A stretch of DNA of 64,000 nt, taken from assembly GCA_964558645.1 (NCBI GenBank), contig CAZLEV010000006.1, positions 124,263-188,262 on the forward strand. Direction: 5' to 3'. This document shows, in pieces, positions 60,233 to 64,000 of this stretch. The notes below the pieces were generated by a model that was not told the DNA's origin, did no database searches, and saw only the letters and a list, made by a program, of their open reading frames with translations. Source of the DNA: an uncultured archaeon. GTDB taxonomy: Archaea; Asgardarchaeota; Thorarchaeia; Thorarchaeales; Thorarchaeaceae. The translations under genes and the position numbers were made by a program. Every line of letters begins with the position of its first letter. Position 1 is the first letter of the stretch.

Positions 60233-60545
60233 TGCAGCGGGCAGGGTGGGCCGTTTGCCGCGGCTGAAACCATAATGGCAATAATGGCACCAGTAACACC
60301 GCAGAGGCTGAACCCAGACTCTGGTGGTTTTCGCTGCGTGACGTTGATGGGCGGTCTCTGGAGTCCGTCACGGCCGAAGCAGCATTCGTAGGTCTGCTGT
60401 GATTGGCTTAGACGTCCGAACCGTGTCAGGCCCTGGCGGGAACAGCACTTAGGATGGGTGGTGGAGCCCCAGAGGTAGCCGCTCTGAGAAGCGCATCGAG
60501 TTCGCCATCAGCGAATGGACAGTCGAAGCTGTGTGAGCCGCTGCA
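60233..60545 (+). ncRNA. ffs: Signal recognition particle (7S) RNA
   Basis: ~313 nt bounded by TGCAGCGG/CCGCTGCA terminal helix; helix-8-like GTCAGG-CCC-TGGC-GGG-AACAGC. Confidence 0.85.
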
Positions 60546-60843: not shown

Positions 60844-60990
60844 GCTGAGGTTTCCTAGCCTGGACTTTCATCTCTTTGAGATGGAAGGGGCAACAAGGAG
60901 CTGGCCTGCTATTCGTCTATGCATGAGGCAGGCGAGCTGTCAGTCAGTGCGGTTATCCGCGCGAGGGTTCGAATCCCTCCCTCAGCGCCA
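60844..60990 (+). tRNA. tRNA-Ser(GCT) with two 30-nt BHB introns (60864-60893 in D-loop; 60912-60941 at 37/38)
   Basis: GCTGAGG/CCTCAGC acceptor, G73+CCA, long variable arm GCGG-TTAT-CCGC, T arm; removing both inserts gives a normal cloverleaf. Confidence 0.93.
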
Positions 60991-62022: not shown

Positions 62023-63378
62023 CTATTTCTTCTTGGCTGCGCCCATGTCTCTGGGAGTGACGTCAAGCACTACGCCCACAGCAACAGTCATACCCATGTC
62101 TCGCACTGCGAAACGTCCGAGCTGTGGAAGTTCCTTGTATTTCTCAATCACCATCGGCTTGAGTGGCACAAGTACCGCGTGCATCGACTCTCCCTTCTTG
62201 ATGAAATCGGGATTCTCCTCGATGACTTGGCCTGAGCGCTGGTCGAGTTTCTTGAGGAGCTTGTCGAATCGACATGCAATCTGTGCAGTATGCGCATGTA
62301 TGACTGGGGTGTAGCCCACAGTGATTGCAGTTGGATGCTGGATGACCATTACTTGACCTGTGTAGTCTGCAGCCACAGTCGGGGGTGCATCAACAGGACC
62401 AGCAACGTCGCCACGACCGAGGTCCTTTCGTTCAACACCACGGACGTTGAAACCGATGTTGTCACCGGGGACTGCTTCGGACATTTCCTCATGATGCATC
62501 TCGATGGTCTTGACCTCACCAGTCTTGTTTGGCGGCATGAACGTAATCTTTGAGCCTACTTTCAGGACACCGGTTTCAACACGACCAACTGGAACAGTAC
62601 CGACACCCTTGATAGAGTAGACGTCGTTGATTGGTACACGTAGGGGTTTGTCTATTGGCTTGGGAGGAAGTTCAACAGTGTCAAGTGCCTCCAGCAGGCT
62701 TGGGCCCTCGTACCATGGGGTCAGATCCGGCGTTTTCTCCTTCAGGTTGCATGCTGATAGCGCAGAAGTTGGGATGAAGTCCATCTGATCTGTCTTGTAG
62801 CCGATACTCTTCAGGAACCCACCGACCTCTTCTTTGACTTCATTGTACCTGTCCTGGCTGTATTCGACGCTATCATCGTCCATCTTGTTGATGCACACAA
62901 TGATGCTGGGGACACCAAGAGTCATGGCAAGGTATGCATGTTCCTTGGTCTGACCACCAGGCCCAACCCCGGCCTCAAATTCACCCTTCTTGGCTGAAAC
63001 AACCAAGAGAGCAACGTCTGCCTGAGATGCGCCCGTAATCATGTTCTTGATGAAGTCCTTGTGTCCGGGAGCGTCGATGATTGTGTAATTGTACCATGGC
63101 ATGTAAGCCAAGCCATGTTAGTACTTATCGGTCAGGAACTTGAAGAAGGCGATATCAATGGTGAGACCGCGCTCTCTCTCTTCCTTCAACCGATCCAATG
63201 CGAACGCCCACGCCCAAGATGGCCGACCGAGCTTTTCGGCTTCAGCCTTGTGCTGCTGGAATGTTCTCTCGTCTACGGCACCTGTTTCATAGAGTAACCG
63301 GCCTGTCATGGTGCTCTTCCCATGATCTACATGGCCGATTACCACCAGATTTAGGTGCTCCTTATCCTTTTTTGACAT
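62023..63378 (-). CDS. tuf: Translation elongation factor EF-1alpha, spliced: join(63378..63119, 63088..62023), 441 aa
   Basis: Exon 1 [19 protein letters not shown]; exon 2 [39 protein letters not shown]; same frame, separated by a 30-nt insert containing TAA. Confidence 0.93.
63089..63118 (-). other. Putative BHB-type mRNA intron in EF-1alpha
   Basis: GUAC-UA^A-CAUGGC-(11 nt)-GCCAUG-GUAC-AA^U: 4-bp central helix, 3-nt bulges, 6-bp intron stem. Confidence 0.88.
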
Positions 63379-63479
63379 TTTATTAAACACCACGTCATGT
63401 AGCATTTGTATTACTTGATGACCCACTTGGCCATCGGACTAACGAGGCCGCATAGGTACGGCAAACGGTCAGTAGTTAG

Positions 63480-63495
63480 GGTTTAAAGCTTTTGG
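63480..63495 (-). promoter_or_regulatory. BRE/TATA promoter of EF-1alpha gene
   Basis: CCAAAAGCTTTAAACC ~105 nt upstream of ATG; GTGGTG RBS-like motif before the start. Confidence 0.6.
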
Positions 63496-63550
63496 CATGA
63501 CTTGTGGTGGCGACTCTACTCAAGCCCATACACCTCTCTTATCCTGAAGA

Positions 63551-64000
63551 TTATGAATGCCCATTCCTAAGGGCACTCGCCTGCCTTCGTTTGTGGGGAA
63601 ACAAGCTGACAAAATGCAACCTAGACGAACTCCTTGGATAACTGAGTATCCGGTGCTCAGCAATCTGTCCCAGAGCCAAGTATATCTCCGTGGGACGGAC
63701 TGCGGAGAAGTTGGCATAGACACCGGGGAGATGCACAATGATCACATTCCTGAAGCCTGCGGTCACCGCCAGTTCACCCTCCTTAATGTGAAACAGTTTC
63801 TCGCACTTCATGCAGACCCATTCGTACCAGTGTTTCATGGAGTCAATGACCTTTCCTGGCGGAGCAAGGTTCTCTCTACTCTTGGGGTCCATATCGTGGC
63901 TGAGGTTGATGAAGACCCTCCGGGGGTCGTCTGGACTGACTGAGAACCATTTGTCCCTGTGCTGTGCGATAACGTGTTCCTGGCAGAGAAAAACGGGCAA
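63551..64000 (-). CDS. Hypothetical protein, 3' part (5' end outside window)
   Basis: Open frame from window edge with CQEH and CMKC motifs; no family recognised. Confidence 0.45.
   Translation of the reverse strand: MPVFLCQEHVIAQHRDKWFSVSPDDPRRVFINLSHDMDPKSRENLAPPGKVIDSMKHWYEWVCMKCEKLFHIKEGELAVTAGFRNVIIVHLPGVYANFSAVRPTEIYLALGQIAEHRILSYPRSSSRLHFVSLFPHKRRQASALRNGHS

What the first reader, a model, noticed from the sequence alone, without database searches (positions are those of the whole stretch)
63089..63118. tRNA-type bulge-helix-bulge intron inside the EF-1alpha mRNA
Seen in sequence: the minus strand reads AAG TAC TAA CATGGC TTGGCTTACAT GCCATG GTAC AAT TAC ACA ATC ATC GAC GCT CCC GGA CAC, a 30-nt in-frame insert whose TAA would truncate EF-1alpha at 86 aa. 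It folds as GUAC/GUAC (4-bp central helix), a UAA bulge, a perfect CAUGGC/GCCAUG intron stem and an AAU bulge. The exon-side helix is weak, so the motif is relaxed (BHL-like). Established: archaeal splicing endonuclease EndA cuts after the second nucleotide of each bulge and RtcB ligates. Applying that rule gives AAG TAC TA+T TAC ACA = [12 protein letters not shown], matching the EF-1alpha consensus KYY(F/V)TIIDAPGH. The stop codon is itself the cleaved bulge and becomes a Tyr codon, whereas simple deletion between the GTAC repeats would give KYNY. Both halves, the promoter and the RBS are intact. The established precedent for BHB mRNA introns is cbf5 of Crenarchaeota; I do not know of one in EF-1alpha or in Asgard archaea. 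Inference: an essential translation factor depends on non-spliceosomal mRNA splicing, analogous to RtcB/Trl1-ligated XBP1/HAC1 splicing. Automatic annotation would call it a pseudogene.
Basis: partly seen in the sequence, partly recalled or inferred. Interest (0 to 1): 0.97.

Follow-up and report, generated by a model that had tools for sequence, protein, structure and literature searches.

The report
tRNA-type intron in Thorarchaeota EF-1alpha
The only gene for the essential translation factor EF-1alpha in this Asgard archaeon is broken by a 30-base hairpin of the same family as the introns in its relatives' tRNAs and rRNA, so the message very probably has to be cut and rejoined by the tRNA-splicing enzymes, something published for only one other archaeal coding sequence (cbf5); spliced RNA was not seen here.

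Summary
Confirmed. A 30-nt insert (63089-63118, minus) stops the genome's single EF-1alpha after 86 codons; an independent assembly carries it base for base. Cutting by the bulge-helix-bulge rule gives [12 protein letters not shown], and Tyr87 is invariant in 68/68 family relatives (repeat deletion would give Asn). A different Thorarchaeia species has a homologous insert at the same nucleotide, with compensatory stem changes that break the GTAC repeat but keep pairing. Other relatives have such inserts at codons 55 and 100. A covariance model built only from the EF-1alpha inserts retrieves tRNA and 16S introns (9 of the top 13 new hits), so they are one intron family. The genome encodes a two-subunit EndA with the broad-specificity loop, plus RtcB. 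New here: the intron sits at the 3' edge of a foreign 5' block of the gene (break at about codon 92), and so do two codon-100 introns, which points to horizontal spread by homologous replacement. Splicing is inferred; no RNA reads could be checked. In print only cbf5 is known; this scan noted EF-1alpha BHB introns earlier in other archaea, including a Thorarchaeota genome. A regulatory XBP1-like role is unsupported.

The parts
63119..63378 (-). EF-1alpha exon 1 (codons 1-86 plus the first two bases of Tyr87)
   Evidence: TIGR00483 positions 3-85; 0 nonsynonymous and 52 synonymous codon differences versus congener G001
63089..63118 (-). 30-nt intron by the BHB cut rule: 1 bulge base + 9-bp stem + 5-nt loop + central-helix strand + 2 bulge bases
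   Evidence: (only clean insert of this kind in about 70 kb of synteny with G001)
62023..63088 (-). EF-1alpha exon 2 (third base of Tyr87 to the stop codon)
   Evidence: TIGR00483 positions 88-426
63121..63124 (-). exon strand of the 4-bp central helix (GUAC)
63118..63120 (-). 5' bulge UAA (the in-frame stop); predicted cut after its second base
   Evidence: cut rule from PMC2738675
63095..63117 (-). intron hairpin: 9-bp stem and pentaloop, a diverged member of the family whose loop is usually AUUUC
63091..63094 (-). intron strand of the central helix (GUAC here, GUGC in the same-site homologue)
63088..63090 (-). 3' bulge AAU; predicted cut after its second base; exon-side helix reduced to one pair
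63067..63078 (-). recombination breakpoint (before codon 92, approximate interval 91-94) between a foreign 5' block that carries the intron and the native 3' part
63481..63496 (-). BRE/TATA-like promoter of a type shared with G009, G012 and G016 but not with congener G001
63388..63393 (-). GGUG-type ribosome-binding site, conserved in relatives
   Evidence: 16S 3' end seen
60844..60990 (+). neighbouring tRNA-Ser(GCT) with two 30-nt introns (60864-60893, 60912-60941), showing that the cell must remove relaxed introns of the same size
   Evidence: ARAGORN finds an 87-nt tRNA-Ser only after both are removed; missed

Best explanation
The insert is a protein-spliced (EndA/RtcB) intron in the coding sequence of the cell's only EF-1alpha mRNA. 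The pre-mRNA folds a 4-bp central helix, a 3-nt bulge and a 9-bp intron hairpin (relaxed HBh' motif). The two-subunit splicing endonuclease cuts after the second base of each bulge and RtcB joins the exons, turning the UAA bulge into a UAU Tyr87 codon and restoring a 441-aa protein. The intron belongs to the roughly 30-nt family found in Thorarchaeia tRNA and 16S genes, which has landed in EF-1alpha at three or more sites (codons 55, 87, 100). This lineage most likely acquired it sideways, on a swapped 5' block (promoter to about codon 91) recombined into the conserved [12 protein letters not shown] stretch. Shown: geometry, register, conservation, kinship, enzymes, mosaic. Inferred: cleavage, ligation, direction of transfer.
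For: Register: Tyr at codon 87 in 68/68 family relatives, congeners 98% identical and reading KYYY. Single copy in a 93%-complete genome. No decay: 55 codon differences specific to this genome versus both congeners, all synonymous. Reproduced by another assembler. Same-site homologue in another species from two JGI samples, L111/L112: 4/4 central pairs kept with U-A changed to U-G, two stem pairs changed on both sides. Codon-100 inserts in 4 genomes and 2 further alleles: 91% of cells paired, 5 double changes, 2/500 shuffles as high. Codon-55 insert in G016: 31 nt, frameshifting, with one possible register that equals the BHB cut. A model of these 9 inserts finds tRNA-Met, -Lys, -Phe, -Ala, -Trp and 16S introns as 9 of the top 13 new hits in 86 genomes. 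EndA alpha aligns to Aeropyrum pernix EndA (E 1e-42) and keeps Tyr125/His133/Lys164 and the CSL lysine 44 that PMC3241643 ties to broad specificity; a beta subunit and an intact RtcB are present. Mosaic: 62% of codons differ from G001 before codon 92 and 17% after, 0/300 permutations; monophyly of the genus rejected for codons 5-90 (p-AU 0.017); G023 and L108 break at codons 100-101, at their own introns.
Against: The exon-side helix is missing, so the 3' cut is at a relaxed site whose efficiency is unknown. The same-site covariation rests on only two distinct sequences and does not beat shuffles alone (111/500). The Logan run may come from the same sample as the genome. The assembly is a MAG (6% contamination, 93% complete), so a second intact copy is not strictly excluded. 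5' breakpoints also occur in many intronless pairs, so the mosaic is family background and does not prove that the intron drives its own spread.
Confidence: 0.88

Rival explanations
1. Recoding without splicing: the ribosome reads through the UAA or hops from the UAC before the stop to the matching UAC 30 nt downstream (T4 gene 60-like bypass).
For: The insert is in frame, a stop follows the take-off codon, a hairpin follows, and a matching TAC landing codon exists in this allele.
Against: A hop gives Asn at a column that is Tyr in 68/68 relatives. The same-site homologue has TGC, not TAC, at the landing place. The codon-55 insert is 31 nt and shifts frame. Readthrough would add 10 variable residues just before the DxxG motif, and the family shows no such insertions.
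Confidence: 0.03
2. A miniature DNA element (MITE-like hairpin with a GTAC target-site duplication) recently inactivated the gene, or is excised at DNA level; the real EF-1alpha lies in an unassembled part.
For: GTAC flanks the insert on both sides in this allele; the genome is a MAG, 93% complete.
Against: The duplication model implies an Asn87 pre-insertion allele never seen; the homologue has GTAC/GTGC, paired but not repeated; no second copy of the insert or of the gene; both halves show only synonymous lineage-specific change; independent inserts recur at three sites, each in BHB register.
Confidence: 0.05
3. Assembly or sequencing artefact, including a chimeric join of two species at the conserved stretch.
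For: MAG with 6% contamination; the contig ends 620 nt upstream in a dispersed repeat; the 5' block differs from congeners.
Against: An independent Logan contig is identical across insert and junction; homologous inserts occur in unrelated samples; the upstream repeat has paralogues on three other contigs of this genome.
Confidence: 0.02
4. The intron is spliced and also serves as a regulatory switch that ties EF-1alpha supply to splicing capacity (XBP1/HAC1-like).
For: Unspliced mRNA yields an 86-aa fragment; the same enzymes mature tRNA and rRNA; the motif is relaxed and could be rate-limiting.
Against: 63 of 68 family genomes with a scored EF-1alpha 5' region lack any intron; site and presence vary among close relatives, which fits a tolerated mobile passenger.
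Confidence: 0.1

Closest known systems
cbf5 pre-mRNA intron of Desulfurococcales and Sulfolobales (Watanabe 2002; Yokobori 2009, PMC2738675)
   Same: Short intron inside a coding sequence, within a codon of a conserved motif; relaxed BHB; cut between the second and third bulge bases; host has a hetero-oligomeric EndA.
   Different: Different gene (essential EF-1alpha) and lineage (Asgard, Thorarchaeia). Patchy, at three or more sites, and apparently moved between genera, whereas the cbf5 intron sits at one site. cbf5 splicing was shown by cDNA and in vitro; this one was not.
Non-canonical BHB/HBh' introns of archaeal tRNA and rRNA genes, including Asgard tRNA introns (bioRxiv 10.64898/2026.10.13.758758) and intron transposition in Thermoproteales (Fujishima 2010, as reviewed in PMC4090602)
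   Same: Same size, layout and, by covariance model, the same sequence family as Thorarchaeia tRNA and 16S introns; repeated gains at different sites.
   Different: Those papers cover tRNA genes only; the Asgard preprint does not mention mRNA or cbf5 and found no general arrival route.
Haloferax volcanii HVO_1309 5' UTR BHB intron (PMC7714728, PMC10485636)
   Same: mRNA processed by the archaeal splicing endonuclease.
   Different: That intron is in the untranslated leader and does not break the reading frame.
XBP1/HAC1 unconventional splicing
   Same: Endonuclease cut plus tRNA-ligase joining of an mRNA (own knowledge).
   Different: Cut by Ire1 at twin stem-loops, stress-regulated; no Ire1-like step or regulation is indicated here.

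Membership tests
Archaeal EndA-spliced BHB-type intron | 4-bp central helix made of exon and intron strands, each followed by a 3-nt bulge | tested here: met
   4/4 pairs in this allele and in the same-site homologue
Archaeal EndA-spliced BHB-type intron | Intron-side helix next to the 5' bulge | tested here: met
   9-bp stem with changes on both sides of pairs
Archaeal EndA-spliced BHB-type intron (strict hBHBh') | Exon-side helix closing the 3' bulge | tested here: not met
   one pair only; fits the relaxed HBh' class described in PMC4090602 and the 'unconventional' cbf5 motifs in PMC2738675
Archaeal EndA-spliced BHB-type intron | Cut after the second base of each bulge restores the conserved host sequence | tested here: met
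   also at codons 55 and 100 in relatives
Archaeal EndA-spliced BHB-type intron | Host encodes a broad-specificity (alpha-beta)2 EndA and RtcB | tested here: met
   (sequence features only; activity not tested)
Archaeal EndA-spliced BHB-type intron | Spliced RNA or excised circular intron detected; EndA cleaves in vitro | not testable with these tools
Thorarchaeia ~30-nt tRNA/rRNA intron family | Sequence and structure kinship with tRNA and rRNA introns | tested here: met
   this allele's loop (GCUUA) is a diverged member
Homing-endonuclease-carrying mobile intron | Endonuclease gene in or beside the intron | tested here: not met
   no such family in the neighbouring ORFs tested; LAGLIDADG_3 hits lie on other contigs
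MITE or IS with target-site duplication | Direct repeat that restores the ancestral allele; multiple genomic copies | tested here: not met
Programmed translational bypass (T4 gene 60 type) | Matched take-off and landing codons that restore the conserved protein | tested here: not met

The most novel reading that the evidence does not exclude
Thorarchaeia carry one mobile family of about 30-nt protein-spliced introns that moves between tRNA, rRNA and mRNA genes, has invaded the essential EF-1alpha gene at several sites, and spreads between genera on swapped 5' gene blocks, so spliced, intron-bearing mRNAs are a live and transferable trait in the archaeal lineage closest to eukaryotes.
Probability: 0.6. 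Interest if true: 0.88.

Novelty: new member of a known kind. Interest (0 to 1): 0.78.

Why it matters
Reviews up to 2023 list only cbf5 (coding) and one Haloferax leader as spliced archaeal mRNAs and expect more (PMC10485636); my paper searches found no report for EF-1alpha or Asgard archaea. An intron in an essential single-copy gene makes mRNA splicing obligatory in an Asgard cell. Kinship with tRNA and 16S introns, and near-identical cores at codons 87 and 100, make the open question of how BHB introns arrive testable in a protein gene, where synonymous sites record recombination. In practice, annotation splits these genes (86- and 103-aa fragments are in public protein sets), and the 5' mosaic cautions against EF-1alpha as a marker in Thorarchaeia.

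Tried and rejected
The first related-loci run failed on frame. Pattern scans for a same-site insert or the exact insert found nothing in genome contigs or metagenome contigs; the same-site homologue came from the protein-cluster route instead. Rfam has no family for the insert. De novo scans for other frame-breaking BHB introns in this genome ranked the EF-1alpha insert third of 11 by coding score (the only roughly 30-nt candidate with a strong hairpin) and first of 93; the remaining candidates were not checked against homologues and look like background, so other mRNA introns here are neither shown nor excluded. cbf5, aEF-2 and RtcB are uninterrupted here. No donor for the insert was found in this genome (best ungapped match 21/30). 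A family-like hairpin on contig C7 lies in an open coding frame and was rejected as chance. The split EF-1alpha of G068 is due to small deletions, the third break in G016 is an assembly gap, and L113-L116 are chimeric or truncated contigs, not introns. The upstream 149-aa ORF is a dispersed repeat with no family hit; Atlas hits were under 0.85 and not used.

Full report
Observation. The minus strand holds an EF-1alpha gene from ATG 63378 to the stop at 62023, with an in-frame TAA at codon 87 inside a 30-nt excess. The halves match TIGR00483 positions 3-85 and 88-426. The nearest named homologues are Candidatus Thorarchaeota proteins. It is the only EF-1alpha in the 3.63-Mb, 93%-complete genome. 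A Logan contig from SRR2187629 is identical over 3,259 nt, so the insert is not the error of one assembler, though that run may be the same sample.

Register. Of all 30-nt deletions, two registers give KYYY and five give KYNY. Two congeners with 98% identical protein read [12 protein letters not shown] without any insert, and Tyr87 is present in 68 of 68 family relatives. The BHB rule (cut after the second base of each bulge, PMC2738675) picks a KYYY register. Shuffled inserts reach this geometry in 2 of 2,000,000 trials. The shape by itself is common (117 half-motifs genome-wide); the coincidence with the true ends is what counts. Among frame-breaking candidates the insert ranked first of 93 in a relaxed genome-wide scan. 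The exon-side helix has one pair, so the motif is the relaxed HBh' type (PMC4090602).

The gene is alive. Against both congeners, the 55 codon differences specific to this genome are all synonymous. A BRE/TATA-like promoter and a GGUG site lie upstream. In about 70 kb of synteny with G001 this is the only clean 30-nt insert.

Relatives. Protein clusters of truncated EF-1alpha led to two JGI contigs of another species with a 30-nt insert at the same nucleotide. Its central helix reads GUAC/GUGC: pairing is kept and the direct repeat is lost, which defeats both the target-site-duplication and the ribosome-hop readings. Two stem pairs change on both sides (two distinct sequences, so not significant alone). 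Four genomes of four genera and two more metagenome alleles have a 30-nt insert at codon 100/101 with the same layout; 91% of cells pair, with five double changes. G016 also has a 31-nt frameshifting insert at codon 55 whose only possible register is the BHB cut. The same-site homologue shares a 14-nt core with the codon-100 intron of G023, and a 15-nt version of that core occurs in 86 genomes only inside those EF-1alpha introns.

Kinship with RNA-gene introns. A covariance model built from nine EF-1alpha inserts was run over 86 genomes. Nine of the 13 best new hits are introns in tRNA-Met, -Lys, -Phe, -Ala, -Trp, one tRNA-like 3' end and 16S rRNA. This genome's own 16S has 29- and 30-nt inserts with the same kind of loop, and the tRNA-Ser 2.2 kb away has two 30-nt introns. 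The mRNA inserts are therefore members of the family that the cell must already splice out of its tRNAs and rRNA.

Machinery. Two EndA-family genes and an intact RtcB are present. One EndA aligns to the Aeropyrum pernix catalytic subunit (E 1e-42) with Tyr125, His133, Lys164 and the CSL Lys44 conserved; PMC3241643 shows that this loop gives activity on relaxed motifs. The other appears to lack the catalytic His, as expected of a structural subunit.

How it arrived. Codons 1-91 differ from G001 at 62% of codons and the rest at 17% (0/300 permutations), while G001 and G002 stay 93% alike in the 5' part. The three congeners form a clade downstream but are rejected as a clade for codons 5-90 (p-AU 0.017). 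The promoter is also of another type. G023 and L108 break from their nearest intronless relatives at codons 100-101, at their introns. The simplest reading is replacement of the 5' block, with variable upstream cargo genes, by recombination in the most conserved stretch, the intron riding along. Many intronless pairs also break between codons 38 and 107, so this is a family-wide habit and not proof of homing. No homing endonuclease was found beside the gene. The direction (gain in this lineage) is inferred by parsimony.

Comparison and novelty. It works like, and on every testable feature except the strict exon-side helix belongs with, the cbf5-type relaxed BHB mRNA intron. In print the known cases are cbf5 and a Haloferax leader; a 2026 preprint on Asgard introns covers tRNA only. 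Earlier notes of this scan report BHB inserts in EF-1alpha and other genes of other archaea, including a Thorarchaeota genome; these are unchecked AI notes and were not counted as evidence.

Verdict. Very probably a real EndA/RtcB-spliced intron in an essential mRNA (0.88); a new member of a known but scarcely documented kind; interest 0.78.

Noticed in passing
window 63076-63500 and family EF-1alpha loci L001-L091: The 5' quarter of EF-1alpha (promoter to codons 40-105) is a recombination mosaic across Thorarchaeia, with at least two promoter types and variable genes between rps7 and EF-1alpha; exon-1 and exon-2 trees disagree.
   Followed up: partly
window 60844-60990 (+): tRNA-Ser(GCT) with two 30-nt introns, missed by ARAGORN; congener G001 has both with altered hairpin sequences.
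   Followed up: yes
window 60233-60545 (+): Archaeal SRP RNA (RF01857, 102.5 bits) just downstream of aIF-2.
   Followed up: no
window 63551-64000 (-); L097:2568-3053; L098:2416-2751: A dispersed repeat of about 0.5-1 kb (70-77% identical copies on C1, C8, C9) with a decayed-looking ORF and no family hit; it probably causes the contig break and links C6 to the start of C26.
   Followed up: partly
L117 (G000 C10:126529-126557 and 126673-126702; LAGLIDADG at C10:125726-125965): 16S rRNA carries several short BHB inserts near its 3' end and a LAGLIDADG reading frame within the rRNA region.
   Followed up: partly
L034:654-691 and 821-857 (G016): One EF-1alpha gene with two introns (codons 55 and 100).
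   Followed up: yes
L104 (G003:C2:45160-45555) and L105 (G018:C30:10766-11164): A second, 3'-only piece of EF-1alpha (about codons 313-445 of the query) lies 3-5 kb downstream of the full gene in genus g2, as if duplicated by an integrating element.
   Followed up: no
L147 (G022:C92:3085-3122), L133, L130, L136: Weaker hits of the intron model outside tRNA/rRNA; removal of the 31-nt hit in L147 joins 35 and 262 open codons, a candidate further mRNA intron not checked against homologues.
   Followed up: no
G000 C4:168976-169066: ARAGORN reports a tRNA-Sec (TCA); relevant only as a rival for TGA-containing codon-100 inserts, not for this TAA.
   Followed up: no
G000 C5:234784-236931 and C5:181286-183319: Two EF-2 paralogues, both uninterrupted.
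   Followed up: no
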